A stretch of DNA of 64,000 bases from a virus, in IMG/VR virus record IMGVR_UViG_3300050821_005814, positions 1 through 64,000 of that record, one strand, 5' to 3'. Under the pieces are notes generated by a model. It did not search any database. It was not told the origin of the DNA and saw nothing but the letters and a program-made list of their open reading frames with translations. Shown here piece after piece: positions 8,542-47,123 of the stretch (positions are counted from its first letter, which is position 1; each line of letters starts with the position of its first letter). Both the position numbers and the translations under genes were made by a program.

Positions 8542-8930
8542 TAACGCGCATTCCCCCGCCCGCGCCCAGTACCAGCTGTGCGCGAAGCTGAAACAAAGGC
8601 GGGCGTATGCATACCAATGCCCCGAATCTTACCCTTCTTTGTCACAGTTGCTGACGACTGACCCGATGGATGCAGATAGCTCGAACTCCCGCGGTTCGTT
8701 CCCTCAAACTTCCAACCTTCCTTCTCGAACTTGTTATGAATCTCCGAGTGGATAGGCTGTGAACGCGCATGAACGCGACTCTGAAAGTTAGCCTCATTAG
8801 ACCCACGTTTATGCTGACCCTTCTTCATACCAGGCACGCCATAATCATGCGCTACGCGCTGGATGGCGTCAGTTGACGACGCGCCCATACGACGCTGCGT
8901 CGCGATTGCGTCCAGTGTTCTACTTGCCAT
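8541..8930 (-). CDS. Small basic hypothetical protein with duplicated N-terminal leader
   Basis: MASRTLDAIATQRRMGASSTDAIQRVAHDYGVPGMKKGQ; stop overlaps next ATG. Confidence 0.6.
   Translation of the reverse strand: MASRTLDAIATQRRMGASSTDAIQRVAHDYGVPGMKKGQHKRGSNEANFQSRVHARSQPIHSEIHNKFEKEGWKFEGTNRGSSSYLHPSGQSSATVTKKGKIRGIGMHTPAFVSASRTAGTGRGRGNAR
8833..8864. repeat. 32-bp exact direct repeat, copy 2
   Basis: Identical to 8032-8063. Confidence 0.9.
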
Positions 8931-9510
8931 CGTTCCCATGCCTCCATCTCTGCGCAGGTAGCGAGCGGATCACAAAGGTGATCGACTGCCGCAACTGGCC
9001 GGTGTTAATCAACGTCGTCAGGTTGTTCTTGCCCCAGTAGACGAGATTCATCGTCTGCTGCTGCAAGCTCTTGAGCATCGCCGTCCCCTTACGCGTCCGA
9101 CGCAAGCGCGCCTTGACTGTGCTCTCCGCAAGCGGGGGAGGGATGTTAGATGAGATCTTAGAACGCACCGCATTTTGCGCCTTCACCCCTAGCGCTTGGA
9201 GCTTGCGTTGCACAGCAGGCTTGTCCCCGTCCAGCGCTAGGCGCCCTGCTATTAGCAGATCCGCCACGATCTCCTTCTGAATGCTCTCGACGCCAGGCAC
9301 AAGAAACGGGCGCGCTGGAACATTATGCCCAGGTTCGCCTGTCTCCATGACGTAACCTATGACCGCATTGCTGATCGGCGATCCGTCATTGCGTCCGGCA
9401 GCCGTGTCAGGGATGCCGACCATCACCTTCTGCGTTGTCATGTAGTCAATAGCCGCCACGACCTTTGGCAGATTGTCGATGATCTGCAGGTTGCTTGGCT
9501 TCTGCGCCAT
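8920..9510 (-). CDS. Neck/virion morphogenesis protein (HK97 gp10-like)
   Basis: VMVGIP, NAVIGY..E.G....PARPFL, PPLAEST, LINTGQLRQSIT motifs; start taken at ATG 9510. Confidence 0.8.
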   Translation of the reverse strand: MAQKPSNLQIIDNLPKVVAAIDYMTTQKVMVGIPDTAAGRNDGSPISNAVIGYVMETGEPGHNVPARPFLVPGVESIQKEIVADLLIAGRLALDGDKPAVQRKLQALGVKAQNAVRSKISSNIPPPLAESTVKARLRRTRKGTAMLKSLQQQTMNLVYWGKNNLTTLINTGQLRQSITFVIRSLPAQRWRHGNDGK

Positions 9511-31633: not shown

Positions 31634-32434
31634 TTAGGTAGCTCCGGCTGTCCAACCAGGCGCTGATCCAGGGGGCGGCGTACCACTCGGTTCTGCCCCC
31701 GCACCGCTTTCCATGTCGTCATCCTGTGCCTGGCGATGCCTGCGGATGGTATCGCGAATGCGCGCTACAGCATCAGCATTGATCGCGTAGCCCGTCGAGT
31801 TCTTCTTGTTGCCGAACCACGACTCAGCCCCAACGCTACTGGACTCACTACCCGCTGCATCCCACTCAGCATTATGCGTCGCGGGAATGCTGCCCCAGGT
31901 GCCGCCCTTCATGCTGCCGAGCGCATCACGAATGCGATCACGTCCCTTACTGCGGCGCAACCGATCACGCAGTAGCTTGATGCCGCTACCCTTCGTGAAC
32001 ACGTCGAGTAGTCCTGTGCGATAGAAAATTGGACCTTCGCGTCCCCCTTCCCATGACATCTCGAGCGCGGGATTTGATCCCCAGTTGCTACCTTCCCTTA
32101 TCATCGGCGGGTCGATATCACGCGTACGACGGTCGCCAGTACCAAATGCCGCTTGCGGGTTGTCTTCGCGCGAACCCTCCTGCATATCATCCTGCATACG
32201 CTTCGCACGCTTCAGGAATGCATCACACATTGCTGCTGTCGACGCGGACGGGGGAGGACCTGCGACGAGATCACCAAGCAAGCTCTGCCACAGCGCCCAA
32301 GGACCGCCCTGCGAGTCGACGCCAGTGATCGTCCCCTTGTTCTTCGATGCGTAGAACACGGACGTGCCTTCCTTCTCGCCATACTGGCTGCGCATGGATC
32401 GAAGTATCTTACGTCCCTTGGCTGACAATGGCAT
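31634..32434 (-). CDS. Hypothetical head-associated protein
   Basis: N-term MPLSAKGRKILRSMRSQYGEKEGTSVFYASKNKGTITGVD, a recurrent phage head-region motif; many R-x-D segments. Confidence 0.6.
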   Translation of the reverse strand: MPLSAKGRKILRSMRSQYGEKEGTSVFYASKNKGTITGVDSQGGPWALWQSLLGDLVAGPPPSASTAAMCDAFLKRAKRMQDDMQEGSREDNPQAAFGTGDRRTRDIDPPMIREGSNWGSNPALEMSWEGGREGPIFYRTGLLDVFTKGSGIKLLRDRLRRSKGRDRIRDALGSMKGGTWGSIPATHNAEWDAAGSESSSVGAESWFGNKKNSTGYAINADAVARIRDTIRRHRQAQDDDMESGAGAEPSGTPPPGSAPGWTAGAT

Positions 32435-32486
32435 CGCTCTATTCCCTCAAAGGAAAAACTGCGCCAGTCTCCCAGCGCAGTTGTAC

Positions 32487-33047
32487 TCAGGTGTTGGTGA
32501 AGTTGGAGTCGCTCTCCTCCAACGCCACGCGCGTTCGCTTTTGACGATTGCGCTTCAGGTCGTCAGCGGCCTGAATCTCCTCTTGATCAAGCGCTGCCTG
32601 AATGCGCTGCCGTCGCGTCGCCTCATGCCGCTTCTCTTCCTGGTCCTTGATCGTGCCAGGCGCGGGAGGAATTGGCGGGGGAGGGTTGTCGGTATGCGCG
32701 AGTAGGTAGAAGTGACTCGCGTCCTTCTCCGACACGTCATAGTAACCCGGCAACCCGCAGTTCGTTCCCTTGGGATCGAACAACTCCTGCGTATGGTCCT
32801 CCCTGTTCAGCATGAAGCGCGAGACAATATGCACGCGCGTCATGCCCTCTGGCGTTGGGACCTGATCAGCAGGCACCTCCTGCTCCTGCGCAGCGTCTTG
32901 CGCGCTCTCAGAGGCGGTAGCGGCAGCGTTTGCCGCATTGCCTGCACCAGCCTGGGGGTCCGGCTGCGTCTGCACCGCGGGATCACCTCCCCCCTCATTG
33001 GGCGGCGCTCCACCCTGACCTGCGCCGCCCTGCGGTTCGTCTGCCAT
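32487..33047 (-). CDS. Hypothetical protein downstream of major capsid
   Basis: 186 aa; AGGAG RBS; low-complexity N-term, coiled C-term. Confidence 0.6.
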   Translation of the reverse strand: MADEPQGGAGQGGAPPNEGGGDPAVQTQPDPQAGAGNAANAAATASESAQDAAQEQEVPADQVPTPEGMTRVHIVSRFMLNREDHTQELFDPKGTNCGLPGYYDVSEKDASHFYLLAHTDNPPPPIPPAPGTIKDQEEKRHEATRRQRIQAALDQEEIQAADDLKRNRQKRTRVALEESDSNFTNT

Positions 33048-33076
33048 GCTCGTTACTCCTTTCGCAGTTTGACCCC

Positions 33077-34156
33077 TCAGATGCCGTCCGCGTACTGCAT
33101 CGTCTCAGGGTACACGAGCTCGATGACGCCCAAGCGGCCCCAGTACTCAACGACCTGATGAAGGCCGCGGAACTGAATGGGGGTACGCTGTAGCGGCACG
33201 AGCGGATAGCGCACACGGTCCTTGTCCTTCGTGTACGCGACCATGCGGTTGGTACCGCCAGCCCCTAGGCCCGGCAGCCATTTGACTGGCTGAATGTCCA
33301 GCTCGCGCCCATAAGAAGAGTTGGTGATGCTGTTCTTCTTGATGTACTCGATGATGGAGATATTGCCGGCGTTCGACACCTTCTGCGACGACAAGGTGCT
33401 GAAGTGGATCGGCGGCAGTCGCAGGTGCGTGGGGATCAACGCATATCCAGCGTTCGTCCAAGCCTGCGTCAACAGGAAGTTTACGTCGGCGACGATTTCG
33501 TCTGGCGACTTTGTGATCACACCAGTCGCTGTCACCCACGTCGTTACGCCTTGTGTGCCAAGCGGCACGTTGTAGGGCGTCACGAGCGCGCTGTTGAACA
33601 TGCCCGTCTTGTTGTAGTCGGTATCACCGACATACACCATCTGGTCGATGTCCATCTGGTACTTGAGCTTCATGCCCGCGTACTTCTGCTGATCAACCGG
33701 ACGACCGGTCTTCTCAGCCGACTGCAGTTCGGGCAACGTCCACTTCAGTTCGGTGCCCCACAGCAGCAGCGGGTTGACGACCTTGCCGATGTCCAGCGAG
33801 ATGCCGGAGATCGCAGTCGACTCCTTGCCGATCCAGTTCTTACCGGCCGGGTTGATACCACCAGGCGCGGCGAAGGTCGAGATCGTGTAGGACGAAAACT
33901 CGTCCGCTGCTGTCACGTCTTCCCGCAGATCGATGTCACGACCCCAGGAGACCTGAACGAGGGGCTCATGCAGAGTCTGGTCGAGCCGCTCAAGTTCGCC
34001 GATGAGAAACGCACCCGTACTGTCGATCGTCATCTGGGTGGCTGCATCGTAAGTCATCATCTGGTCCTTCGTGAACTGTCGCACACGAGGACGGATGATT
34101 GCTGGGCGTGAAAGCATGGTCGTATCCGCATACTCAATGCGGCGGAGATTGCTCAT
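33077..34156 (-). CDS. Major capsid protein (DUF2184/encapsulin-like HK97 fold)
   Basis: DSTGAFLIGELERLDQTLHEPL..WGRDIDLREDV, GRPVDQQK, DIDQMVYVGD, YWGRLG.IE.VYPET motifs. Confidence 0.92.
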   Translation of the reverse strand: MSNLRRIEYADTTMLSRPAIIRPRVRQFTKDQMMTYDAATQMTIDSTGAFLIGELERLDQTLHEPLVQVSWGRDIDLREDVTAADEFSSYTISTFAAPGGINPAGKNWIGKESTAISGISLDIGKVVNPLLLWGTELKWTLPELQSAEKTGRPVDQQKYAGMKLKYQMDIDQMVYVGDTDYNKTGMFNSALVTPYNVPLGTQGVTTWVTATGVITKSPDEIVADVNFLLTQAWTNAGYALIPTHLRLPPIHFSTLSSQKVSNAGNISIIEYIKKNSITNSSYGRELDIQPVKWLPGLGAGGTNRMVAYTKDKDRVRYPLVPLQRTPIQFRGLHQVVEYWGRLGVIELVYPETMQYADGI

Positions 34157-34217
34157 AACCTTTACCTCTCAATGACTGTTGGACGAAACGACTGCCGCTC
34201 AAGCAGCCAAGGTTGAA

Positions 34218-34745
34218 TTACGGGATACGACCGTTGAAGCTGATCTCCGTGAAGCCGCTTGCATCAGCCGGCCCCATGAAGGTGCAGCCATCGACTGCGA
34301 AACCACTGCCGCCAGGGTTCGCAGCCTCCCAACCGCCGGTGATATGCGTACCAGACGGCGCAGCGGTCCAGACATAGACCTGACCGCCTTTCACGGCGGC
34401 TGTCGACCCTGACAGCAGCACGCTGATGTACCCCTCGCGCAGAATGTCGCAGGGACCCTGCAAGCCAGGCGGCGACCCACCACCGAAGCCATCCTGCGGC
34501 CATGCCGACGACTGCGTCGGATAGGGACGCGCAAGAATGCCATAGACATGCGTGTCAGCAGCCTGCAGCGTGCGCATGTTGCCGACATTGCCTGCCGTCG
34601 CGTCGACAACCATTGGTACGCCATAGCCCGTCGGCGCACCAGTCGTACCTGCTGGCGTGATGACCTGCGCCTCAATCGTCGCAGCCCAAACGCGATTCAC
34701 TTCGCCAACGATGCCCGCTGGCATGCGAGTCAAAAATGCAGTCAT
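34218..34745 (-). CDS. Capsid decoration/cement protein
   Basis: RMPAGIVG.V.R, G..ARPYP, LREGYISV, KGGQVYV, FMGPADASG..EISF motifs; between protease and MCP. Confidence 0.8.
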   Translation of the reverse strand: MTAFLTRMPAGIVGEVNRVWAATIEAQVITPAGTTGAPTGYGVPMVVDATAGNVGNMRTLQAADTHVYGILARPYPTQSSAWPQDGFGGGSPPGLQGPCDILREGYISVLLSGSTAAVKGGQVYVWTAAPSGTHITGGWEAANPGGSGFAVDGCTFMGPADASGFTEISFNGRIP

Positions 34746-34795
34746 GATCCTTACCTACTCTCCAATGAATGTGAAGACTCGTAGCCGCGGTAGTC

Positions 34796-36400
34796 TCAGG
34801 CGGTGCCGTATGCCTTTCTGTTCATCTCGTTGATGGATGCGACAGTCTTGGCAGCAGTGTCAGCAGTACGACCGCCGCCGAACGTGTGCGCTGAGTTCTG
34901 CATGCCAGCCATCGTTGACGCTGCATTGAATGCGATCGAAATCGCGTCACACGTCCATGCAGTGTCATTGAACGCCGGACGGCGCGTGCCGATGACATCC
35001 TTGACGACCTGCTGCGTCTTCTCCGCCTTGTAGGCAGCATCGAGCACGCGACGCTTGAAGCTGCACATTGCGTCGAATGTCTTGTTGGCAGCCGCGTCCG
35101 CAACAAACGTCGGGAACGTCATGCCTGGCACAAGCTTCTCCGCTTTGGAGACCATGTCATCGAATGGTGCGCGCAGGTTGGTCGAATCACCGACCGCTGC
35201 CCGGCGACGGCGATCGCTTGTACCGCTTGCACGCGGCAAGCTTGGTATATGGCGACCATAGGCTTCGCTGACATCGATCTCGGTCCAACCTTCGGAGTCT
35301 TCCGCCTCCTCCTTGTTGCGCTCACGCCGACGACCGGACTCTTCTTCGCCCTCGAGCTCGCTCTCCGACTCGTCACGCATGCGCGCATCGCGGCTGCGAC
35401 GGTCACGCGTGCGCCGACTGCGATCACGCGTACGCCGGCGATCGCCCATCTCTTCGCGATCGCCGTCCTCGTCATCGTCGTCGTCGGGTTCCGCCCCTTC
35501 CTCCTGCGCGAGCATCGTCAGGATCTTCTCGATCGCATCGAGACGCTGCAAGACATTCGCCATGGGGTCACCGCCAGCAGCAGCGCCGCCTGCGGCAGCA
35601 CCGCCACCTTCCTCGGCATCGTCAGCAGGACGCTCAACAGCACCCCCGCCATTATGCAGGTGCACGTGAACCCCGCCCCCGCTCTCGCCGCCCATCATCT
35701 CATCCGAGATGATCTCACCAAGCATCTCAGGGTCGTGCTCAGCCTCTGTCACGGCAGCGAGGGCGTCGACAACGCTACCCCGCTTGACAGCCCTGCGAAA
35801 CCGATCCATGAAACGCGCACGCTGAACAGACTTTGGAAGTGCCATAGCTTGATCTCCAATTGCACAATGAGGACCGCACCGCCCCCTGTCGACGAGTGCG
35901 ACGTGGTTGCCGACAATGTTGAGGCAGCGTGCGCGGCCGGGCCCAAGCTGCTCATACTCTGCGTCGTATCCGGCCGAAATCTCCTTCTTGCCTGAGTTGA
36001 TTGCCTCAATCGCCTTCTTGTTGGTGACCAGGATGTCACCGAACATGAAGTCGTTGTCATACTGCAGCCCATCGCCACGACGGGGATTGAGGATGGTCCC
36101 CATTTGATAGTCGTGGCAGTTGTCGGGCGTCAGCATACCAATGGGAGGGTGGTCGTCAACGAACGGTTTCCCATTGTAGCTCGCAAGCGTCTGAGGCGCG
36201 AACACCTCCTCCGCATCGCGTTCGACTATAATCAGCCCATCCTTCCCAGCCTCGACTGCCGGGAGTTCATTTGCTGCATAGACTTGTGTGCCAATGCGCG
36301 CGATTGGCACATCCGTGATCAGCAAGAACCCCTCAGGCGTCAGAGCCCTATGGTCGGAGAGCGTCGAGGTTACATAGAACCTCTGCGTTGGCCCTGCCAT
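34796..36400 (-). CDS. Prohead protease/scaffold (DUF2213-like)
   Basis: TPEGFL...PIARIG, GKPFVDDHP, KKEISAGYD, GNHVALVDRGRCGP.CAIGD, then acidic/R-D-rich scaffold region. Confidence 0.9.
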   Translation of the reverse strand: MAGPTQRFYVTSTLSDHRALTPEGFLLITDVPIARIGTQVYAANELPAVEAGKDGLIIVERDAEEVFAPQTLASYNGKPFVDDHPPIGMLTPDNCHDYQMGTILNPRRGDGLQYDNDFMFGDILVTNKKAIEAINSGKKEISAGYDAEYEQLGPGRARCLNIVGNHVALVDRGRCGPHCAIGDQAMALPKSVQRARFMDRFRRAVKRGSVVDALAAVTEAEHDPEMLGEIISDEMMGGESGGGVHVHLHNGGGAVERPADDAEEGGGAAAGGAAAGGDPMANVLQRLDAIEKILTMLAQEEGAEPDDDDDEDGDREEMGDRRRTRDRSRRTRDRRSRDARMRDESESELEGEEESGRRRERNKEEAEDSEGWTEIDVSEAYGRHIPSLPRASGTSDRRRRAAVGDSTNLRAPFDDMVSKAEKLVPGMTFPTFVADAAANKTFDAMCSFKRRVLDAAYKAEKTQQVVKDVIGTRRPAFNDTAWTCDAISIAFNAASTMAGMQNSAHTFGGGRTADTAAKTVASINEMNRKAYGTA

Positions 36401-36401
36401 C

Positions 36402-36797
36402 TCAGCTATTCGCTACGACAGCAATGGGATTCGTCAGGTTGGCAACGCTCGCCGCACCATTGACGATTGAAATCTTGAGGCTCTGCGCAACGACAGTCAG
36501 CTTCGTGTCGCTGATGAATGCTGTCGCCGCTACGAGCGCTGCTGTGATTGCTGCGCCGTTGTTGATGTTGCCCAACACATCTAAGCACGGCTGGATGGTA
36601 AGCGTCCCCGCATTCGACAGCGTGCCGCCAATCGCAATGTGCGGGTTGCCGCCAGTAGCAACGACAACAGGGCCGAAGGTGCCGCTCGCCGCAATCGTCG
36701 CTGGCCAGGGGATGACGCCGGGTGCCGCGACAGTACCGCTATTCAATTGAATAGCAGCAGCGCTCGCGATCAAGCGCGCTGAAACCGATTCGCTCAT
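36402..36797 (-). CDS. Hypothetical small beta-rich protein
   Basis: 131 aa ORF in head operon, abutting protease gene. Confidence 0.55.
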   Translation of the reverse strand: MSESVSARLIASAAAIQLNSGTVAAPGVIPWPATIAASGTFGPVVVATGGNPHIAIGGTLSNAGTLTIQPCLDVLGNINNGAAITAALVAATAFISDTKLTVVAQSLKISIVNGAASVANLTNPIAVVANS

Positions 36798-36817
36798 GGA
36801 ATGCTCACCCTATGGTG

Positions 36818-36866
36818 AAAAGAGGAGGGGTAGCGTGACGGGTGCCGCTAACCCGCACTACCCCTC
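36818..36866 (-). terminator. Putative intrinsic terminator inside late arm
   Basis: GAGGGGTAG (36825-33) / CTACCCCTC (36858-66) stem, followed on minus strand by CTCTTTT. Confidence 0.5.
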
Positions 36867-36993
36867 AGAAGCGGCGTGGCAACCCCCGAGTATCGATCGG
36901 GGTAGTCGAGGAAGGAGAAAACAGGACGCCAGCAGCATGCAGGTGCCGTGCAACCCACTGCTGACTAAGACCACGGCTTCAGCGTAGGATGCG

Positions 36994-37605
36994 TTAGGTC
37001 GGACGCTCTGTCCAGACGACCTCGCACCCAATGGACGACCCAGCTTGGAACGACGTGGCTGCGCCGTTGATCGCAAGGAAGTTGCCGGGCTTGATGATGA
37101 TGTCCTTGTCGGTCGCTGAGTCCCGCGCCATGTCGAAGATTGCTGCATTGGACGGGCCGGACGACGCGAGCACAGTTGTGCCAAGCAGACCAGCGCGCAC
37201 GATGCCGAGTGATGTGCCAAGCGACGCAGGGTTGGCCGTGTACTTCGCGACGGTTGCAGTCGATGTCGGATCACGCGAGTCATAAGGCGTTGGCGTGACG
37301 GCAGCCGATGTACCACCGGTATTTGCCGTGCTGCGCAGGATGAGCTCAACGAGGTCCGCGCCGTTTGCCGTCGACGCACCAAAGCATGACACATGCCGCA
37401 CATGCACGAACAACGACGGGTTGGACGATCCGGACAATGTCAGGATGTCAGTCGGGGACGCAGCAGGCGTCAAGCCGGTGAAGATCGCCGAGTATGTCGG
37501 GTAGGACGATGGGATGGTGACGACGTTGTCATACGCCATTGCTGGCAGCGCAACAGCGACTGCCAATGCAGCAACGGCTCCGAGGAGGAAACGCCTCATG
37601 ATCAA
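36994..37605 (-). CDS. Signal-peptide protein, S/T-rich beta-sandwich
   Basis: MRRFLLGAVAALAVAVALPAMA|YD; AAGGAG RBS; two Cys. Confidence 0.65.
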   Translation of the reverse strand: MIMRRFLLGAVAALAVAVALPAMAYDNVVTIPSSYPTYSAIFTGLTPAASPTDILTLSGSSNPSLFVHVRHVSCFGASTANGADLVELILRSTANTGGTSAAVTPTPYDSRDPTSTATVAKYTANPASLGTSLGIVRAGLLGTTVLASSGPSNAAIFDMARDSATDKDIIIKPGNFLAINGAATSFQAGSSIGCEVVWTERPT

Positions 37606-37627
37606 AGCTCCTTATGAAAGTTGGTAG

Positions 37628-37990
37628 TCAACGTGAGATCAGAGGGATCTCCCCTCGTAGTTCTGCAAGCGCCCCCGCGATACCCGTCCCTGTCGAATAG
37701 CCATCGGACGGACCAAGAGGCGGCACAGCAGCACCAAACCCCTCCCATGTCTTGATGACCTTAGGAGGGAGTAACGATGAATCGACTGGATAGTCGCCGA
37801 GCTCCTTGACTGCCTCAAGGGCAGTCATCGGCTCAATGCGACCATCCTGGATCAGGCGCATGATTGAATCGACTGTCATCTGCAGTCGATTAGCTTGCAC
37901 AAGCGCGACTACCTGCGCCGGACCGATGAACTCAAGGACCCACACCCGCCGCGCTTGCTCTACTGTCAGCTCCATCAGAAGTTCGTCCAT
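37628..37990 (-). CDS. Hypothetical protein
   Basis: 120 aa; GGGGG RBS. Confidence 0.5.
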   Translation of the reverse strand: MDELLMELTVEQARRVWVLEFIGPAQVVALVQANRLQMTVDSIMRLIQDGRIEPMTALEAVKELGDYPVDSSLLPPKVIKTWEGFGAAVPPLGPSDGYSTGTGIAGALAELRGEIPLISR

Positions 37991-37999
37991 GCTATCCCC

Positions 38000-38335
38000 C
38001 TATGTTCCGCGAAAGATACCGTCTGTCAGCCACCCATGCCATTTGCATCCATGCGTACGCAAAATAGATGGTGTAGTCGTTGGCTTGTCTTCACTTCCGT
38101 TCCATGCCCATGCCTTCCCATATGCAGGATTGACTGTGACCGCTGCGATAGCGCCGCACCCGCATGGACATGTGAACCACAACGACGCAATCTTACCATC
38201 CGATCCGCGCATCCAGACGCCTGTGCCAGGTTCTAAGTCGCGACGGTAGTATACGCCATCTTCATAGTGCCGCTCCTCGTACTCGAGAAACAGCACTCGA
38301 TAGTCGACAAGCTTGAGCGGCACATCCGCCATCAC
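38000..38335 (-). CDS. DUF6527-like Cys/His protein
   Basis: FTCPCGCG...WAWNG...PTTTPSI....CKWHGWLTDG signature. Confidence 0.7.
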   Translation of the reverse strand: MMADVPLKLVDYRVLFLEYEERHYEDGVYYRRDLEPGTGVWMRGSDGKIASLWFTCPCGCGAIAAVTVNPAYGKAWAWNGSEDKPTTTPSILRTHGCKWHGWLTDGIFRGT

Positions 38336-38571
38336 ACACCCTTGTGAAAGTGAATGTGTATGCCGCGCTTTGGCTTGAGCTTTTTGACTGCAGGCGCAGC
38401 AGTCGCTGCTTCATCATCATCAGCAGCAAGCGGATCAAAGCCAAGCAACGCGACTACATCGTCTGGCGTCTTCGCTAGCGGCTCATCATCATCCGAACTG
38501 TCATCTTCGGACGGCATCACCTGCTGCTCGCTGATTGCGCCAACATGCACGTCAGGTAGGTCGTCAGACAT
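38332..38571 (-). CDS. Small acidic head-region protein
   Basis: Start ATG 38571; TPDDVVALLGFDP motif; C-terminal IHIHFH. Confidence 0.55.
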   Translation of the reverse strand: MSDDLPDVHVGAISEQQVMPSEDDSSDDDEPLAKTPDDVVALLGFDPLAADDDEAATAAPAVKKLKPKRGIHIHFHKGV

Positions 38572-39535
38572 TTGCATTGCCCCACGGCGCAAACACGACA
38601 GGCGAGATGTAGCTTTGCAGCGCGACGGTTGGCGTGTTGCCAAGCTTCGCTGCGACGACTTTCGCTACCTGCATGACAGCCTTCTTGTAGCCCGTCGCAT
38701 TTGCAGGCGGTGCGACCTTCGTGACTTCCTTCATCGCAGTCTTGGTGCCAACGAGTGTGCGAAAGTCTTTCGTCTTGAACCCGCCGCCGAATGAGTGCAC
38801 GTAGTCGAGCAAGCTCTTCTGATTGACGTTACCAAACAGGCGGCCGTTGTTTCCCGCTGCCTGCTTACGCTCGCGCAGCATCTTGCTGAGCGATGGGTCT
38901 TCAACTGGTAGGTCCAACGCAACGCCCTTCTTACCAACAAACTTGAGCGACACCTTATTACCCATGACGACTACATGCTGCCCCTCAAGTGTCGTCGCAC
39001 CATATGCCTTCACCTTCGCCTGCGTGTCCGTGTCCGACCCAGGACGCACGCCCATATCCATGATGAGCGCTGTAACATCGCCCAATGCACGATGCGTCGG
39101 GTTGCTGGACTTACGCATCTTCTCATTCTGCAAGCGAATGGTAGACAGCTTCGCGTCAAGTGTCTTGATGCGTGCGAACTTAGCAGCCGCCTGCTTCGCT
39201 GCATGCGACTCGGAGTAGACGTATTGCGTGCGTCCCGCCGCATCCTTGCCCGTCACCTGCAACGGCGCCTGGGGGTCTTCACTATAGGTGACATCCTTCC
39301 ATGCGGGAGGGATGCGTAGCTTGGCTATGTGCGCTGGCAGCTCACCGCCACCCTTCGCCTTGAAGCCGTTGGGGGTCTTCTCCGCTGACGTGTGCCCGCT
39401 AGCACCGCCGCCTTTGGGTGCAAACTCGCCAGCGTTCTCCGGTTGACCCCGCGGATGCTGCGACGACTCCCATGAGACGTCGACAACATGCACAAGCGAT
39501 CCCTTACTATCTAGCCAGAGGTGCACGCTAGGCAT
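38564..39535 (-). CDS. DNA topoisomerase IB (bacterial/poxvirus type) with N-terminal HPRG leader
   Basis: IPPAW.DV, LQVTG.DAAGR.QY.Y, GVRPG (Arg), YGATTL, FVGKKG (Lys), KDFRT (Arg), LGNTP....SYI (Asn, Tyr); ATG 39535 overlaps MuF stop. Confidence 0.9.
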   Translation of the reverse strand: MPSVHLWLDSKGSLVHVVDVSWESSQHPRGQPENAGEFAPKGGGASGHTSAEKTPNGFKAKGGGELPAHIAKLRIPPAWKDVTYSEDPQAPLQVTGKDAAGRTQYVYSESHAAKQAAAKFARIKTLDAKLSTIRLQNEKMRKSSNPTHRALGDVTALIMDMGVRPGSDTDTQAKVKAYGATTLEGQHVVVMGNKVSLKFVGKKGVALDLPVEDPSLSKMLRERKQAAGNNGRLFGNVNQKSLLDYVHSFGGGFKTKDFRTLVGTKTAMKEVTKVAPPANATGYKKAVMQVAKVVAAKLGNTPTVALQSYISPVVFAPWGNANV

Positions 39536-40322
39536 TTGGAATGACAGGCTCCGGATAGCAGCGACAGTTGTAGATAGCACCGGGATGCGCGCGTTCGCCG
39601 TTGCTACCAGCGATTGGCGGGGCATCCCAGCGATGAAACGTACCCTCAAGCTTCTTATGCAGCGGACGCACATTCCAGTCGTGGGCCGTACGCCAGATAT
39701 ATCCCTCAGACCCGATCTGCTTAGCGCGCGCTTGCGTGAGCGTTGTCGCAGCGCGAGTCGTTTCAGTGCGCGCTATCGTGTCAGCGCGCGACTTAGCAAC
39801 CTCACCCGACAACATGATCTGCTTTGCAAGTACTTCTGCCCGCTGACCGCTATAGAGCTGACCCGTCGCAATGGCTTGCACACGCTTCGCTGCTTCAAGG
39901 GGCAGCGATGTGATCAAGTCAACCTGCTCATCAAGCAACTGCCGCATGATCTCGCCAGTCGGCGTTTCAGCGAGCTCCTTGCGCAGCTCAAGCCCCATGA
40001 AGCGCGCGTACTGCGCCCATGCTTTCTCATCGCGACGTGACACGTCAGCAAGTAGTGACGCGGATATCGCGCGCGCCCAGGGACGCAGGATGACGGAATA
40101 CCGATCAAGCAAACGCGTCAATGTGTCCAGGTCATGCGGACTACCGCTCGCCATACCCTTGACGAGATCGCCTATGTGCTTTGCAACGCTGCGTAACTGC
40201 ACCGTGAACTTAACCTCAGCATTGCGTACTCTAGCAAATGCCTCGCGCTCCTTGCGCGTATCCCGCCGCGCGTCACCCACTCTAGCTGCGGGCAACGACA
40301 ACGGCGGGAGAGCATCAGGCAT
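39528..40322 (-). CDS. MuF/SPP1 gp7-like head morphogenesis protein
   Basis: RADTIARTE, GYIWRTAHD..VR..H..LEG, HPGAIYNCRC signature. Confidence 0.9.
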   Translation of the reverse strand: MPDALPPLSLPAARVGDARRDTRKEREAFARVRNAEVKFTVQLRSVAKHIGDLVKGMASGSPHDLDTLTRLLDRYSVILRPWARAISASLLADVSRRDEKAWAQYARFMGLELRKELAETPTGEIMRQLLDEQVDLITSLPLEAAKRVQAIATGQLYSGQRAEVLAKQIMLSGEVAKSRADTIARTETTRAATTLTQARAKQIGSEGYIWRTAHDWNVRPLHKKLEGTFHRWDAPPIAGSNGERAHPGAIYNCRCYPEPVIPNA

Positions 40323-40331
40323 CGCTTGACT

Positions 40332-40703
40332 TTACGCAGCGGCCGGGGGCGGAGGCGGAGGCGTCGCTGCTGCCACAGCCGCATTGAGGTCATTTGTCAA
40401 CGTCGAGAGCTGACTGGACAGCGATGCCATCTGCGCGAGCTGGGCTGGCGTTGCAGTACCGCCACCTGACGCGACTTCCTGCTGCAAGGTGACGACCTGC
40501 GCAGCAAGCGAAGAGATCTCAGTAGCAGCTCCAGTCACGGCAGTCGTCAGCGTCGCAACGTTTGCCGCTTCAGTCGTCAGTTCGTTCTGCAAGTTGTCGG
40601 ACATCTGTATCACCTTCTGTAGTTGCTGTTGAAGGTTGGCCACCTCCCCCTGGACTATGGCCAACTGTGCAGGTGTCGCCCAGGGTAGTCTAAATAGAGG
40701 CAT
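40332..40703 (-). CDS. Coiled-coil hypothetical protein
   Basis: 123 aa; heptad pattern; AGGAG RBS. Confidence 0.55.
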   Translation of the reverse strand: MPLFRLPWATPAQLAIVQGEVANLQQQLQKVIQMSDNLQNELTTEAANVATLTTAVTGAATEISSLAAQVVTLQQEVASGGGTATPAQLAQMASLSSQLSTLTNDLNAAVAAATPPPPPPAAA

Positions 40704-40728
40704 CGGCGATCTCCTCTGCCACTAACCT

Positions 40729-41025
40729 CTATCTGATCGATGGCGTAGGCACGCGATCACAGAGCAGTGACTCAAGCTCTAGCATACGCTTGTGCGAGTC
40801 ATTCAAAAGCTCGGTGAGAGTACGAGCACGATGCTGCACAGTAGGTTGCGCCGCTTTCTTCTCGCTAACGCTGCTCACAGCTTGCAAATGCGTGCCGCGC
40901 ACTTCAACAAGAAGTGTGTCCAACCGATCGCGCAGATTCGATGCGGACATGAGCTGCTCAGACAGCTCTTCCGCAAGGTTGAATGCGCGATCTTCTGTTT
41001 GTCCGGCTTGGTTCATCTGGTTCAT
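40729..41025 (-). CDS. Hypothetical coiled-coil protein
   Basis: 98 aa; GGAGGGAG RBS. Confidence 0.55.
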   Translation of the reverse strand: MNQMNQAGQTEDRAFNLAEELSEQLMSASNLRDRLDTLLVEVRGTHLQAVSSVSEKKAAQPTVQHRARTLTELLNDSHKRMLELESLLCDRVPTPSIR

Positions 41026-41040
41026 GCTACTCTCCCTCCT

Positions 41041-43098
41041 CTACTTCACGGCGCGAACTGGCGGCTCACCTCGCCCATAGCGATGGTTGTCAAGCCATCC
41101 CTTGAGCGCTGCGACAGTCATCTGGCGAATAGTGCCGATGCGGTCTGATCCCCGACCATCAGAGAACGCTGCTTTGTATGCAGTCAGCGCTTGCTCGCGC
41201 GACGAGAAGCGCAGCATGCACTTGTGCTCATCGAACACACCGCTATCTGGGTTCAATTGCTCGATCACCCAACACTGCTCCTGCTTCTCGTCGTCGCCGA
41301 TGAAGCAATCCATTTGCTCGCGAGGACCTTCAGCCGATGATGTGCCACTAATATACCCATAATGCGCAGGCATCACTGTCGACCAGCCATACCCTTTGCG
41401 CGCCTCGCCTTTCGGCGTCTCGATGATGCATGTCAGCGGCCCGACATCGACCATGCTGAGCGCATCCATCTGCCGCGCGCGAATGATGTGGCGCAGGAGT
41501 AGCGCATTGCCTGACAACGGGATGCCTTGATCGTCTGTGTCGTCGGGTTTCTCGCTTTCAGCCTGCGGTCCCTCGAGCAGCGGTTCTGTGTTCTCACCAG
41601 CAGCGGGGGTCTGGGTGCTTTCAGGCATCGCGGGAGCAGCGCCGCTCATGCCTGGACCTCCCTGCATTGGCATCCCTGTCTGCGGATCGACCTCTGGCTG
41701 TCCAGGCAGAGGCGCTAATGCGTCGGCCTGTTCCGCCATGTCGAGATCTTCGTCCGTGATGTTGCTGCCAAACCCTGTGATGCGCGAGGACTGGCGAATC
41801 TCCATCATAGCGGTCTTCAGCGTGAAGACGCGATCCTGCAGTAGATTGCTCGTCGCACCTGCGATCGTGCCGGCGATCTGCGACTTCTCGAGCTCAGTCA
41901 ACTGCCATAGCGGCGCAAACTTGTAGTTGAACCCATCTGGCAGCGGTTCACCAAAATGCGACTGATGCGTGATGTGGAATAGGCGTGTGACAAACCGCCG
42001 CAAGCGCGCTTCCTGTTGGCTGCGCGTACCATCATAGTAATTGCGCAGGTCGCTATCGCCAGTCGAGTTCAGTCCTGCAGGCGACTGCGCGAACAAGCGC
42101 GTCATGGGAATGTCAGCGGCACCCGCGACCTGCTGCCCGAATTGCAGCATCATGTCGGACAGCCCAGCAAACGTGTATGACTGCGACTCAAAGTCGTCGG
42201 CTTTGTCAAGGACCGTCATGCCCTCAATCGACTGCATGACACGTATGAGCTGCATGAACTGCTTGACAGCATCCGCCATCTTGCCGCCAGCAGCGATGAT
42301 CTCCCGCAGGTTCTCAATCTTGAGTACGCGTAGGTGCGCTTTGTAGATGAGCTGCGCAGCGCCTTGCGTTGACGAGTCGAATGCGATCATGCGATCGAAC
42401 ACCGGCTCGATCACCGACGCACCCCAACCATTCTCAGTGATCAACTGCCAGTAGGGCAGCTCAATGCCATCCAAGCGTATGCAACGCGAATGGTGAATCT
42501 TCATATTGGGGATTGACCGCGCATCAGCGACCGTGTCATAGAACTTTGGCATACCAAAGTCAGGCCCGAAGTCAGTCACGGGGTTTTCGATATGCGGCCA
42601 TACCATCCAGCGATCGAGGACGAGTATTCCCTTGAACTGATTTTTGCTGACAGTCTCAACGCGCAAGGGGGTTGAGATGTCCTGCCCCTCAATCATGATG
42701 ACGCCAAGCGCACCGCCATACAGGCGCGACCACTTGAGCACACTATTGAGCCGCGACCAAATCTGCAAGTCGTTCCAATACTGGTTCAGCGAGTCAATGC
42801 GGTCGGGCGGCATGTCCGACTCAATGTTGACCCCTTCCCGCGTCATGTCGTCAGCGACTACGTCAACGACCTTGCGCACGAGCCATGCGCCACGATACAT
42901 CCACTCGAGTAGCGTATGGTTGCGGCTGAGCGGATTAAACCCATAGGTCGACGCGGACGAAAGGTTGTTCGTGCCATACCCAAGGTTAGCAGCAAAGTTC
43001 TGGAAGCTGTCTGCTGTACGCACACGCGCGATGGAGTCGCTCGTGTATGCCTGCACGCGCACGCGCGGCTTGATAGGTGCGATAGGCGCGTCACTCAC
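41041..43098 (-). CDS. Portal protein (DUF1073-like) fused to C-terminal inorganic-pyrophosphatase-like domain
   Basis: MYRGAWLVRKVVDVVADDMTREG, WSRLYGG, IHHSR, IPMTRLF.QSPAG..STG.SD.RNYYD; C-term IETPKG...HYGYI.GT...DCFIG...DEHKCML. Likely start GTG 43098 (GTGA overlap); track start 43164. Confidence 0.88.
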   Translation of the reverse strand: MSDAPIAPIKPRVRVQAYTSDSIARVRTADSFQNFAANLGYGTNNLSSASTYGFNPLSRNHTLLEWMYRGAWLVRKVVDVVADDMTREGVNIESDMPPDRIDSLNQYWNDLQIWSRLNSVLKWSRLYGGALGVIMIEGQDISTPLRVETVSKNQFKGILVLDRWMVWPHIENPVTDFGPDFGMPKFYDTVADARSIPNMKIHHSRCIRLDGIELPYWQLITENGWGASVIEPVFDRMIAFDSSTQGAAQLIYKAHLRVLKIENLREIIAAGGKMADAVKQFMQLIRVMQSIEGMTVLDKADDFESQSYTFAGLSDMMLQFGQQVAGAADIPMTRLFAQSPAGLNSTGDSDLRNYYDGTRSQQEARLRRFVTRLFHITHQSHFGEPLPDGFNYKFAPLWQLTELEKSQIAGTIAGATSNLLQDRVFTLKTAMMEIRQSSRITGFGSNITDEDLDMAEQADALAPLPGQPEVDPQTGMPMQGGPGMSGAAPAMPESTQTPAAGENTEPLLEGPQAESEKPDDTDDQGIPLSGNALLLRHIIRARQMDALSMVDVGPLTCIIETPKGEARKGYGWSTVMPAHYGYISGTSSAEGPREQMDCFIGDDEKQEQCWVIEQLNPDSGVFDEHKCMLRFSSREQALTAYKAAFSDGRGSDRIGTIRQMTVAALKGWLDNHRYGRGEPPVRAVK

Positions 43099-43394
43099 TT
43101 GCTTGACATCTCCTGCTGCTGCTGACGTAGTAATGCCAGCGCTTGGCTCAGCTTGCTGCTGCACTCGTCAAGGCGGTCGGCAGTCAGCGCACGCACATCC
43201 TCGTTCTTGTTAGCGTACTCAATGATGGAGTCGAAGGTCCGGGGTTGTTTAGGCTTCACGATAGCAGCGGGATGCGGCGCGCACCCCTGCTCGAGATCTG
43301 CAGGAAGGTGCATGTAAGGCGCAGTCGTTGCTTGCTGCGGCGCATGCGTGCAGCAGCTAAACATCATCAACAGGCTTGCAGGAACCAGACGCAA
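43095..43394 (-). CDS. Putative o-spanin/Rz1-like lipoprotein
   Basis: Short hydrophobic leader ending LMMFSC, Pro-rich segment, LPADL..GC..P and L.EC motif. Confidence 0.45.
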   Translation of the reverse strand: MRLVPASLLMMFSCCTHAPQQATTAPYMHLPADLEQGCAPHPAAIVKPKQPRTFDSIIEYANKNEDVRALTADRLDECSSKLSQALALLRQQQQEMSSK

Positions 43395-45652: not shown

Positions 45653-45795
45653 AACCGGTACCGGACATAGCTCATCCGCCGCCCCAGCCGATACTCATTC
45701 CATTGCTGATGCCAGAGCGCACTTGCTTCCTGCGATGTCGTGATGCAGATCTCCCACCTGCCATCGCGGAACATGTAGACTGTATAGCGTATCAT
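45649..45795 (-). CDS. Small hypothetical protein (48 aa)
   Basis: Not in track; ATG overlaps terL stop and TGA overlaps next ATG (ATGA at both ends). Confidence 0.45.
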   Translation of the reverse strand: MIRYTVYMFRDGRWEICITTSQEASALWHQQWNEYRLGRRMSYVRYRL

Positions 45796-47123
45796 CCTGC
45801 CAATTTCTCCCAAACGCCAAGACCACCACGCTTGGTAATATACCCGTCAAGCGAGTAACCGACCGCATCCCACCCATGGTTGTGCGCGTCGACTACTATC
45901 GGCAGTATCAGCGGCTGCTTTGTGACTGGATCAATACGCTTCTCGTCAGTCTTGTAGGAATAGAGCCTCGCCTCCTGCGCCATACCGACGCAGCGCTCGT
46001 GAATGTGAATCTTGCCAAAGCCCTTCAGGTGCGAGATGCGGTCTTCAACGCACCCCTGCCACTTGAGTGCAGCAGACATGTTGATGCCTTGCCGCAATAC
46101 ATAGCTGATCGTCTCCGGCCGCGCGTTGTCCGCCTTCACCGGCCAGTCAGTGATACCAGGAATGCCCTCGTACTGCATGCCGCTGATTGGTGCGCGGCCG
46201 CCCTTCAGCGCGTAGGGGATGTCTTCCAACTCAACGCCAACGCCGAAGAACTCATGCGTGATCCACAAGTCGTTGTTGTGGATGTAGCTGCGTATGCCGC
46301 ACAGCGGATCGTTCGCAAAGCCAAAGTCGACGCCGTAGAAGTACTTGTCGACGATCTCAGGTTCCTCGAACCCTTCGATCGCATAGCGGTCCTTGAAGAT
46401 AGCTGCTGACGAAATATGCCGGCACATACCCTCCCACACCCAGTCGTACGCGTCTGCGTCTGTCAGCATCATTTGCTTGCGCAGACGATTGAGCGACTCA
46501 GGGAACCATGGATTGTCCTGCCAGCCTACCTTCTCGACGAGTGCGTCTGTCGAATGACCTGTGACAAACGTCGCATACATGTAGTCGTCGGGATCAACGG
46601 CATTGAAGCTGATCCAAATCTCCGGGTTGATACCGCCACGCTCGCCTCTGATCGTTGGGTCGAGGAGCAGCATGGACTCGCGTGATGTCGTCTGCCCTTC
46701 CTCAATCCAGCAAATCGTCACACCTTCAAGCGATCGTATCTCAGCGATGTTACGCTTGAGTCCGCGGAAGATGAACTCACTACCCGTCAGCTTGCATCGT
46801 ATCGTGCGGTCGGTGATCTCGAAGAACGCTGCTAGTCCGAGTGCGCGTATCTGACCTGCAATGACACGATGCACGCTGTCAGCGATACTCGTCTGGAACT
46901 CACGCGTGCAGAGTATCAAATGTTTCTGCACCATCGCACGCCCAATTGCCGCACGTGCAAATGATCGGCTCTTAGCCCCGCCTCGACCGCCCCAGGCGAC
47001 CCGATATCTTACCGCCTCACCCGCGTCGGTCGTGCTCGCGGATAACAGCTTGCGAAAGCGCGGCGGGAAGCGGATGCGAAGAGGACCAGGACCTTCTGAA
47101 TCTGTGAGAGCGTCGAGAGGCAT
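45792..47123 (-). CDS. terL: Terminase large subunit (PBSX family)
   Basis: Walker A GGRGGAKS, CTREFQ.SI.DS, Walker B WIEEG, PTIR, DNPWFP, GVDFGF..DP, NHGWDA. Confidence 0.95.
   Translation of the reverse strand: MPLDALTDSEGPGPLRIRFPPRFRKLLSASTTDAGEAVRYRVAWGGRGGAKSRSFARAAIGRAMVQKHLILCTREFQTSIADSVHRVIAGQIRALGLAAFFEITDRTIRCKLTGSEFIFRGLKRNIAEIRSLEGVTICWIEEGQTTSRESMLLLDPTIRGERGGINPEIWISFNAVDPDDYMYATFVTGHSTDALVEKVGWQDNPWFPESLNRLRKQMMLTDADAYDWVWEGMCRHISSAAIFKDRYAIEGFEEPEIVDKYFYGVDFGFANDPLCGIRSYIHNNDLWITHEFFGVGVELEDIPYALKGGRAPISGMQYEGIPGITDWPVKADNARPETISYVLRQGINMSAALKWQGCVEDRISHLKGFGKIHIHERCVGMAQEARLYSYKTDEKRIDPVTKQPLILPIVVDAHNHGWDAVGYSLDGYITKRGGLGVWEKLAG

What the first reader, a model, noticed from the sequence alone, without database searches (positions are those of the whole stretch)
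31634..43098. Common peptide code on head proteins and cargo: x-x-D|A/S sites, H-x-H-x-H strands and a W..E..HPRG tag
Seen, (i) T/R/V-x-D|[A/S] motifs at domain boundaries: MCP TYD-A and TID-S; portal TSD-S, TAD-S and QMD-A just before the PPase domain; MuF VGD-A; protease/scaffold SRD-A, VGD-S and TRD repeats; 31634 protein GVD-S, IRD-A, NAD-A; neck-region RTLD-A twice. (ii) VHVHLH in the scaffold, IHIHFH at the end of 38332, VHLWLD/VHVVD at the topoisomerase start, TIHVQ at the end of 7803. (iii) WESSQHPRGQPENAGEF on the topoisomerase. Inference: an Asp-specific prohead protease plus short targeting motifs that load and release enzymes inside the capsid for co-injection with DNA.
Basis: partly seen in the sequence, partly recalled or inferred. 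Interest (0 to 1): 0.8.

Follow-up and report, generated by a model that had tools for sequence, protein, structure and literature searches.

The report
Asp-cut code and cargo tags in phage head
A phage marks its capsid, portal, scaffold and a packaged topoisomerase with a short Thr-x-Asp signal, a small leader strand and a widespread "HPRG" tag, which most likely tell the head protease where to cut and which enzymes to load; this gives a testable rule for a very large, little-studied protease family.

Summary
Any Asp-Ala/Ser is at chance level (45 seen, 38 expected), but the narrower [T/V]-x-D-[S/A] is real. It is nearly invariant, in three tandem copies, before the capsid-protein core in 65 aligned relatives (the same pattern in all 120 listed). 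It sits before the portal core in 39 relatives and before the scaffold C-domain in 32. It is about 9-fold enriched in scaffold linkers.

Solved capsids of phages whose head protease is of the same type (Pa193, E217, T1) begin one or two residues after an Asp. An Asp-specific DUF2213 head protease is therefore well supported, though no cut was observed here.

The W-x-E-S-x-HPRG...G-x-F tag is a widespread junction element of portal- or MuF-linked cargo, usually preceded by Asp (74 of 95).

"H-x-H-x-H" is not a code of its own. It is the local His-rich form of a conserved free beta-strand in the scaffold linker. Copies of it sit at the termini of cargo proteins only in phages whose scaffold has it.

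Several listed sites (SRD-A, IRD-A, NAD-A, QMD-A, TIHVQ) remain unsupported or untestable.

This scan has already noted the Asp motif and the tag on other DNA. I found no paper describing either. Verdict: new variant of the T4-type cut-and-load system.

The parts
34796..36400 (-). Protease-scaffold fusion: DUF2213 protease domain (aa 19-184) followed by the scaffold
   Evidence: Pfam PF09979 at E 8e-45. H84, S142 and H166 are nearly invariant. The AF2 protease domain is confident, and the best Foldseek matches are T4 gp21 and then herpesvirus proteases.
35654..35671 (-). Scaffold linker strand V-H-V-H-L-H (aa 244-249), between Gly runs
   Evidence: A strand of the same type is present in close relatives, His-rich or V-T-I-N-V-like. 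AF2 pLDDT is below 50, so it is not docked in cis.
35183..35194 (-). Scaffold V-G-D405|S406, candidate cut just before the capsid-binding C-domain
   Evidence: D405 is one of only two invariant columns in 32 scaffolds. P3 is T in 22 and V in 8. The confident AF2 C-domain starts here.
35402..35431 (-). Two T-R-D repeats in the basic/acidic scaffold linker
   Evidence: Part of the T-x-D enrichment in scaffold regions: 228 seen vs 60.8 +- 7.3 expected. Listed.
34019..34075 (-). MCP leader/core junction: three tandem T-x-D (T29-D31, T35-D37, T43-D45|S46)
   Evidence: D31, T35 and D45 are invariant; T29, D37, T43 and S46 are at 90% or more in 65 relatives, while the leader before them varies. AF2 pLDDT is below 50 through residue 53.
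43006..43047 (-). Portal N-terminal T-S-D43|S and T-A-D52|S before the conserved S-F-x-N-F core
   Evidence: 39 distinct relatives have [T/V]-x-D|S-F-x-N-F after variable basic leaders; D is present in all 39 matched relatives (it is part of the search pattern).
41092..41448 (-). InPase (pyrophosphatase-like) domain fused to the portal C-terminus
   Evidence: Pfam PF18823 at E 9.8e-29. This fusion is described in PMC5512222.
39473..39535 (-). TopoIB N-terminal leader (aa 1-21) with two strands ending W-L-D9|S and V-V-D19|V
   Evidence: Aligns with the leaders of the BgManors32 and vB_E192a cargo proteins. The ATG overlaps the MuF stop codon.
39404..39472 (-). HPRG junction tag W22..F38 plus Gly run
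   Evidence: 61 distinct copies in 52 viral loci, often several per ORF. It matches positions 995-1045 of the phrog_113 profile.
38564..39403 (-). Type IB topoisomerase catalytic part (predicted cargo)
   Evidence: Pfam PF01028 at E 7.6e-24 and PF21338. In relatives it is fused to the portal or sits at the end of tagged polyproteins.
38332..38577 (-). Small acidic partner gene of TopoIB; the C-terminus carries an I-H-I-H-F-H strand (38344-38361)
   Evidence: Homologues directly follow TopoIB in 4 loci, but without the His tail. The start overlaps the TopoIB stop codon.
39528..40322 (-). MuF minor head protein; V-G-D17|A near the N-terminus
   Evidence: Pfam PF04233. Relatives carry T-x-D near their N-terminus: L-T-L-D, Y-T-L-D, Q-T-N-D.
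32315..32434 (-). Conserved 40-aa N-terminal module of the 31634 protein, ending G-V-D40|S
   Evidence: Six homologues keep the module and the Asp; the sequence after it varies.

Best explanation
The window holds the head module of a myophage. Its prohead protease is the DUF2213 domain at the start of the 534-aa protease-scaffold protein. It most likely cuts after Asp in [T/V]-x-D|[S/A].

The predicted cuts would:
- trim the capsid-protein leader (last site T-I-D45|S46);
- trim the portal leader (T-A-D52|S);
- dismantle the scaffold (T-R-D repeats and V-G-D405|S, perhaps also I-G-D183 at the end of the protease domain).

Cargo follows the same grammar. The type IB topoisomerase, translationally coupled to MuF, starts with a 21-residue leader of two short strands. 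These strands resemble the free V-H-V-H-L-H strand of the scaffold linker, and each ends in x-x-D. Directly after the leader comes the widespread W-x-E-S-x-HPRG..G-x-F tag and a Gly linker.

The inferred sequence of events is:
1. The leader strand lets the enzyme ride on the scaffold core into the prohead, as a T4 capsid-targeting sequence does.
2. The protease removes the leader.
3. The free enzyme keeps the tag at its new N-terminus and leaves with the DNA.

Shown here: conservation, enrichment, co-occurrence, and solved capsid models that begin 1-2 residues after an Asp in phages whose head protease is of this type. Inferred: the cut itself, packaging, the role of the strand, and the role of the tag.
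For: MCP:
- Three tandem T-x-D motifs are nearly invariant in 65 aligned relatives (59-77% identity; the same pattern in all 120 listed). The leader upstream is variable and predicted to be disordered.

Portal:
- 39 distinct relatives have [T/V]-x-D|S-F-x-N-F after variable leaders.

Scaffold:
- D405 is invariant inside a hypervariable linker.
- T-x-D: 228 seen vs 60.8 +- 7.3 expected. T-x-D-[SA]: 107 vs 12.
- Controls are not enriched: T-x-E 18 vs 54, S-x-D 44 vs 49, D-x-T 34 vs 60.
- The Salmonella phage SEN34 scaffold has seven T-G-D.

Structural anchors:
- The Pa193 and E217 MCP models start at residue 66, after A-M-D64-S65.
- The first 93 residues of the Pa193 portal are missing from both the map and the LC-MS data, and it contains A-M-D72|S.
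- A-M-D-S is the only 4-mer shared by the Pa193 MCP, portal and scaffold; 0.02 copies are expected by chance in the five head proteins examined.
- The T1 MCP model starts at A27, after K-Q-D26.

Protease:
- The model's best Foldseek matches are T4 gp21, which cuts after Glu (my own knowledge), and then herpesvirus proteases.

Tag:
- 61 distinct copies in 52 loci.
- An Asp lies within 4 residues upstream in 74 of 95 copies, against 26% at control aromatic positions.
- In L034 and L061, standalone cargo proteins start with a leader, then T-x-D or Y-L-D, then the tag.

Strand:
- Terminal His strands on other ORFs occur only where the scaffold (or, in L027, the protease tail) has a His strand: the window, L001, L002 and L027. 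They occur in 0 of 62 modules without one.

Cargo:
- Domains behind the tag include TopoIB, NUDIX, an ADP-ribosyltransferase and LPD3.
Against: - No cleavage, packaging or ejection was observed for this phage.
- In Pa193 and E217 the model start is two residues after the Asp (N66 after D64), so the true terminus is inferred.
- SEN34 keeps two T-x-D motifs with almost no leader to remove. The motif may therefore also, or instead, be a docking site.
- A conserved T-F-D-A lies inside the folded scaffold C-domain, so not every T-x-D is a cut.
- The TopoIB leader has W or V at P3, not T.
- The scaffold strand itself is not followed by Asp.
- Four modules with a His-strand scaffold show no His-tagged cargo within the DNA fetched.
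- The Foldseek match to gp21 is weak (E 8e-3, probability 0.85).
- The related sequences are not independent, so the z-scores overstate significance.
Confidence: 0.6

Rival explanations
1. The conserved T-x-D motifs are assembly or docking motifs, for example contacts between the capsid-protein N-arm or the portal and the scaffold or protease. They would not be cleavage sites. The missing N-termini in solved capsids would then be merely disordered.
For: - SEN34's MCP keeps two T-x-D motifs with almost no leader.
- A T-F-D-A motif is conserved inside the folded scaffold C-domain.
- D405 could be a helix N-cap, since the helix starts at residue 406.
- The cryo-EM papers call cleavage only likely.
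Against: - The Pa193 portal N-terminal peptides are also absent from the LC-MS data.
- In T1 the model begins exactly at the residue after the Asp.
- There are 3-12 T-x-D motifs per scaffold, inside low-complexity linkers that must be cleared from the head. This fits degradation better than docking.
- The same motif precedes cargo tags in polyproteins fused to the portal, which must be released if they are to act.
Confidence: 0.13
2. The Asp rule is real, but TopoIB, the leader strands and the HPRG tag have nothing to do with capsid loading. On this view the tag is a generic hinge or nucleic-acid-binding linker of polyvalent proteins, and the topoisomerase acts in replication in the infected cell.
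For: - The tag occurs at internal junctions as well as at N-termini and is not removed by the predicted cut.
- AF2 gives no defined fold for the strand.
- No proteome data exist.
- The P-R-G-Q-P core resembles an AT-hook. This rests on my own memory and was not tested.
Against: - TopoIB sits between MuF and the scaffold, translationally coupled to MuF.
- In relatives it is covalently fused to the portal C-terminus (L034, L032, L022), which places it inside the capsid.
- Terminal His strands co-occur with a His strand in the scaffold.
- Tagged domains include typical polyvalent-protein effector types: an ADP-ribosyltransferase, NUDIX and LPD3.
Confidence: 0.17
3. The motifs are chance or compositional products of a GC-rich genome and of picking patterns after seeing the data.
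For: - D-[AS] overall is at chance level.
- [TRV]-x-D-[AS] is also mildly raised in non-head proteins.
- Several listed sites are not conserved.
Against: - Columns are invariant in 65 MCPs and 32 scaffolds, and the Asp is present in all 39 matched portals.
- z is above 20, with flat or depleted controls.
- The same rule is seen in low-GC relatives such as L034 and in cultured Salmonella, Acinetobacter, Bordetella and Edwardsiella phages.
Confidence: 0.03

Closest known systems
Phage T4 head maturation: prohead protease gp21 ([L/I]-x-E cut) and the capsid targeting sequences of internal proteins IPI-III and Alt (my own knowledge of the T4 literature)
   Same: - Short N-terminal leaders sit on unrelated cargo.
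- One acidic-P1 motif is shared by capsid protein, scaffold and cargo.
- The protease belongs to the scaffold core.
- The protease domain here has gp21 as its best structural match.
   Different: - P1 is Asp, not Glu, and P3 is Thr or Val.
- The protease is Pfam DUF2213, fused to the scaffold.
- The portal also carries the motif.
- The leader resembles a strand of the scaffold.
- An extra conserved tag stays on the cargo.
Polyvalent proteins and portal- or MuF-fused effectors (Iyer et al. 2017, PMC5512222) and MuF toxins (Jamet et al. 2017, PMC5576092)
   Same: - Head-module location next to the portal and MuF.
- The portal-InPase fusion is described there.
- Effector types match: LPD3, ADP-ribosyltransferase, NUDIX.
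   Different: - Those papers propose a zincin-like MPTase for processing. Word searches found no mention of the HPRG tag, of an Asp rule, or of TopoIB as a module.
- Here the topoisomerase is a separate tagged gene.
Pbunavirus (Pa193, E217, PB1) and T1 capsids with DUF2213-type protease/scaffold proteins (PMC11456595; PDB 9b40, 8frs, 9kzj)
   Same: - Same gene order: portal, MuF, protease-scaffold, then (in the Pbunaviruses) cement protein and MCP.
- The MCP and portal N-termini are missing from mature particles, right after an Asp.
   Different: - The local motif is A-M-D|S (Pbunavirus) or K-Q-D|A (T1) instead of T-x-D|S.
- The Pa193 paper does not state a cleavage rule.
- No tagged TopoIB was noted there.
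Poxvirus virion-packaged type IB topoisomerase (my own knowledge)
   Same: A TopoIB carried inside the virus particle for use at the start of infection.
   Different: A eukaryotic virus with unrelated packaging. The phage case is only predicted.

Membership tests
DUF2213 (PF09979) prohead protease | Sequence match to the family model | tested here: met
   E 8.1e-45, covering aa 19-184 and profile positions 2-167 of 167.
DUF2213 (PF09979) prohead protease | Conserved His/Ser/His candidates and an assemblin/gp21-like fold | tested here: inconclusive
   H84, S142 and H166 are conserved at 90% or more. The top Foldseek rows are T4 gp21 (5jbl, probability 0.85, E 8e-3) and then herpesvirus proteases, all above the E 0.001 cutoff.
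DUF2213 (PF09979) prohead protease | Proteolytic activity with Asp at P1 | not testable with these tools
   Only indirect evidence: conserved motifs and the first residues of solved capsid models.
T4-type capsid targeting sequence system | Short N-terminal leader on cargo, ending in the same motif that is cut in capsid and scaffold proteins | tested here: met
   The TopoIB leader ends in x-x-D twice. L034, L061, L001, L002 and L027 cargo proteins have leaders ending in T-x-D or Y-L-D.
T4-type capsid targeting sequence system | The leader directs packaging and is removed in the head | not testable with these tools
   No proteomics or genetics is available.
Phage-type polyvalent / portal- or MuF-linked cargo | Effector domain encoded in or fused to portal or MuF genes of the head module | tested here: met
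   Portal-InPase fusion. TopoIB is coupled to MuF. Portal-TopoIB fusions occur in L034, L032 and L022.
Phage-type polyvalent / portal- or MuF-linked cargo | Several effector domains in one polypeptide | tested here: not met
   The window's TopoIB is a single-domain protein. The relative L061 has a 1265-aa protein with NUDIX and TopoIB domains and four tags.
HPRG junction tag | W/F-x-E-x-x-H-P-R-G-x-P-x-N-x-G-x-F followed by a Gly-rich run | tested here: met
   TopoIB aa 22-47. Consensus drawn from 61 copies.
Type IB topoisomerase | Catalytic-core and bacterial N-terminal domain models | tested here: met
   PF01028 at E 7.6e-24 and PF21338 at E 2.4e-9. I did not check the catalytic residues one by one.

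The most novel reading that the evidence does not exclude
A three-part address system, in which the head protease reads one Asp rule on capsid, portal, scaffold and cargo alike:
1. A leader strand that copies a free strand of the phage's own scaffold and so co-assembles with the core.
2. A [T/V]-x-D cut that frees the cargo.
3. A retained HPRG handle that governs what happens to the enzyme afterwards, for example leaving with the DNA.

This would make a type IB topoisomerase, a pyrophosphatase and other enzymes injectable. It would also give a portable way to load chosen proteins into phage heads.
Probability: 0.35. Interest if true: 0.8.

Novelty: new variant of a known kind. Interest (0 to 1): 0.68.

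Why it matters
DUF2213 protease-scaffold genes are very common. 591 of 50,697 phage records matched. They include therapeutic Pseudomonas Pbunaviruses and, with a protease of the same type (not run through Pfam here), coliphage T1.

A simple and testable cleavage rule would allow three things:
- predicting mature virion proteins from sequence;
- telling packaged cargo from bystander genes;
- designing leaders that load proteins into capsids.

The finding also points to a virion-carried type IB topoisomerase in phages. That enzyme is almost absent from sequenced phage isolates (one distant hit).

Tried and rejected
- **Nucleotide search.** Megablast of the head region against phage records found nothing.
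- I used the search for related loci with alignments instead.
- **PDB by sequence.** Sequence searches could not align the MCP N-terminus to solved capsids. The AF2 leader is too uncertain for a residue-level structural mapping. The anchors are therefore taken from the first modelled residues of Pa193, E217 and T1.
- **Literature.** Word searches for the HPRG motif, for DUF2213 cleavage, and for PB1 or T1 capsid processing found no description. The library lacks most subscription journals, so the 2004 T1 proteome paper could not be checked.
- **Q-M-D-A before the InPase domain.** Too few comparable fusions to judge.
- **R-T-L-D-A paralogues 7803 and 8541.** No homologues in any fetched locus.
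- **Strand docked on the protease.** The idea that the His strand docks on the protease domain in cis is not supported by AF2.
- **Any D-[AS] as a site.** Rejected; it is at chance level.


Full report
**What is in the window.**
Genes from 315 to about 53,400 lie on the minus strand and form a myophage late region. The head module reads as follows:
- large terminase, 45792-47123;
- portal of the Phage_portal_3 family with a C-terminal InPase domain, 41041-43164;
- MuF, 39528-40322;
- type IB topoisomerase, 38564-39535;
- a small acidic ORF, 38332-38577;
- a DUF6527 protein;
- DUF2213 protease-scaffold, 34796-36400;
- cement protein, 34218-34745;
- major capsid protein (MCP, PF09950), 33077-34156.

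The TopoIB ATG overlaps the MuF stop codon, and the acidic ORF overlaps the TopoIB stop codon.

**Checking the observation.**
All the quoted strings exist.

Taken broadly, claim (i) is not special: D-[AS] occurs 45 times in head proteins against 38.1 +- 5.4 in shuffles. T-x-D-[SA] in MCP + scaffold + portal is 7 vs 1.1. Because the pattern was chosen after looking at the data, I relied on relatives rather than on these numbers.

**The T-x-D rule in relatives.**
- *MCP.* Among 120 homologues the N-terminal leader varies in length and sequence. It always ends in three tandem motifs: aromatic-T-x-D, M-T-F/Y-D, and hydrophobic-T-I/V-D-S. The core follows directly. In a 65-sequence alignment D31, T35 and D45 are invariant, and T29, D37, T43 and S46 reach 90% or more. 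AF2 gives pLDDT below 50 through residue 53, as expected for a linear motif rather than a folded element.
- *Portal.* 39 distinct relatives carry [T/V]-x-D|S-F-x-N-F after variable basic leaders. P3 is T in 30 and P1' is S in 33.
- *Scaffold.* In 32 scaffolds at 26-53% identity, D405 is one of only two invariant columns. It lies in a hypervariable acidic linker just before the confident C-terminal domain. P3 is T in 22 and V in 8.
- *Enrichment.* Across these scaffold regions T-x-D occurs 228 times against 60.8 +- 7.3 in shuffles, and T-x-D-[SA] 107 times against 12. The controls are flat or depleted: T-x-E 18 vs 54, S-x-D 44 vs 49, D-x-T 34 vs 60. The sequences are related, so the z-scores are inflated, but the effect is large.
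- *Cultured phages.* The same holds in isolates. SEN34 has seven T-G-D in its scaffold. Ab105-1phi and IFTN9 have the three MCP motifs plus T-R-D|S-F in the portal. ZHS has T-G-D|S.

**Experimental anchors.**
- The Pa193 paper built the MCP from residue 66 and notes that the first 93 portal residues are missing from both the map and the LC-MS data.
- The Pa193 sequence reads A-M-D64-S65-N66 in the MCP, A-M-D72-S in the portal and A-M-D413-S in the DUF2213 protein. That 4-mer is the only one shared by the three proteins, with 0.02 copies expected by chance in the five head proteins examined.
- The E217 model also starts at 66, and the XM1 model at 31.
- T1's head maturation protease looks DUF2213-like by eye and by an earlier scan note; I did not run it through Pfam. 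Its MCP model starts at A27 and the sequence is K-Q-D26-A27.

Asp at P1 is therefore the common denominator, while P3 differs by lineage (T/V here, A in Pbunaviruses).

**The protease.**
The domain is modelled confidently. Its best Foldseek matches are T4 gp21 and then herpesvirus proteases, but all are weak. From my own knowledge, gp21 cuts after Glu, so an acidic P1 is plausible for this fold.

**The tag.**
- A pattern scan of viral contigs gave 52 loci and 61 distinct copies of W-[NDE]-E-S-x-H-P-R-G-Q-P-x-N-x-G-[QE]-F followed by a Gly run. Most lie at domain junctions of portal-fused giant ORFs, and some ORFs hold up to four copies.
- With looser matching, an Asp lies within four residues upstream in 74 of 95 copies, against 26% at control aromatic positions. 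Around that Asp, P3 is mostly A or T and P1' mostly A or E.
- Domains behind the tag include TopoIB, NUDIX, an ADP-ribosyltransferase and LPD3.
- I found no mention of the tag in Iyer 2017, in Jamet 2017, or by motif search.

**The strands.**
- The scaffold's V-H-V-H-L-H lies between Gly runs and is unstructured in the AF2 model.
- Close relatives have a strand at the same place. Its alternating hydrophobic positions are kept, but its polar positions vary: M-H-I-H-L-H, H-V-H-V-H-L, H-I-E-V-H-T-H-L, H-H-V-T-I-N-V-H, R-V-V-I-E-V-K. More distant, very acidic scaffolds lack it.
- BgManors32 and vB_E192a have Q-I-H-I-H-M in the scaffold. Their LPD3 protein begins with a His-rich strand ending H-T-H/Y-D, followed by the tag.
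- In L027 the protease ends in K-H-I-H-V-Y-L, a tagged zincin-like protein starts with a His strand ending H-T-R-D, and the next ORF starts P-H-I-H-I-H.
- L061, a close relative of the window, has V-T-I-N-V in the scaffold. Four of its tagged proteins have leaders such as V-T-I-D-I-C-Y-L-D.
- In 66 modules of the MCP clade, no ORF terminus carries a strict His strand where the scaffold lacks one (0 of 62). The four with a His scaffold showed none within the DNA fetched.

The strand similarity is suggestive, but it rests on only four or five lineages.

**Cargo.**
- TopoIB has one distant hit among 50,697 phage records.
- In viral contigs it is fused to the portal through the tag (L034, L032, L022), or sits at the end of a 1265-aa tagged protein after MuF (L061), or stands alone as it does here (L009, L028).
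- This places it in the capsid interior in at least some relatives.

**Model.**
The model is set out under the best explanation. Shown: conserved and enriched motifs at homologous boundaries, solved capsid models that start 1-2 residues after an Asp in phages whose head protease is of this type, and the co-occurrence of strand, Asp and tag on effector domains. Inferred: the cut, the loading through strand mimicry, and the purpose of the retained tag.

- S-R-D-A lies in a non-conserved low-complexity stretch.
- I-R-D-A and N-A-D-A in the 31634 protein have no conservation support.
- G-V-D-S in the same protein does: the Asp closes a conserved 40-residue N-terminal module in six homologues.
- Q-M-D-A could not be judged.
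- R-T-L-D-A fits the rule, but the two paralogues have no homologues in my loci.
- TIHVQ is unsupported.
- Arg at P3 is not typical of this lineage.

**Relation to earlier notes of this scan.**
The tag had already been reported on other DNA (e1-5928422, e1-5328300). Asp motifs with DUF2213 proteases had been reported in at least 34 genomes with R, A or K at P3. One note, e1-5929732, gave me the lead to compare the residues before the tag with the capsid cut site. My tests were independent of those notes. What this window adds is the T/V variant, the scaffold-like leader strand, and TopoIB as cargo.

**Limits.**
- The paper library lacks most subscription journals, so an older description of single sites (for example in T1) cannot be excluded.

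Noticed in passing
window 38332-38577 (-): An 81-aa, very acidic protein is translationally coupled to TopoIB. Homologues sharing L-P-D-V-H-F-G ... T-P-x-D-V-V-x-L-L-G-F-D-P follow TopoIB in four other loci, including portal-TopoIB fusions. It could be an inhibitor, chaperone or DNA mimic for the topoisomerase. Only the window's copy has the His-strand tail.
   Followed up: partly
window 38564-39535 (-); L034:6423-9014, L061:1098-4892: A type IB topoisomerase acting as a head-module cargo domain. It is fused to the portal, or forms the last module of a tagged NUDIX-containing polyprotein. It has only one distant hit among 50,697 phage isolate records.
   Followed up: partly
window 32315-32434 (-); L061:12796-13767, L059:4035-4784, L062:3715-4104: A conserved 40-residue N-terminal module (M-P-L-x-x-K-G ... 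V-F-Y-A-S-K-N-K-G-x-I-x-G-V-D) heads otherwise unrelated proteins near the capsid gene. It may be a second kind of leader or tag. There is no Pfam match.
   Followed up: partly
window 7803-8156 and 8541-8939 (-): Two paralogous small basic proteins in the neck region share their first ~45 residues, including R-T-L-D-A. No homologues were found in about 140 fetched loci.
   Followed up: partly
window 35849-35857 (-), end of the DUF2213 domain: The protease domain ends in a nearly invariant I-G-D. In L035 and L038 this is followed within a few residues by an HPRG tag. It is a candidate self-release site of the protease.
   Followed up: no
window 36797-37628: About 830 bases between two head genes contain no convincing minus-strand gene. 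The only long ORF there (36858-37403) is Arg/Ser-rich and looks spurious.
   Followed up: no
window 9512-30936 (-): A roughly 21-kb block of very large repetitive fibre-like proteins (2177 and 1935 aa) and several proteins with signal-peptide-like starts sits between the head and tail genes.
   Followed up: no
L027:3222-4230: A GIY-YIG-like endonuclease ORF and a deaminase/dUTPase-like ORF are inserted between the protease gene and the tagged cargo gene of a related contig.
   Followed up: no
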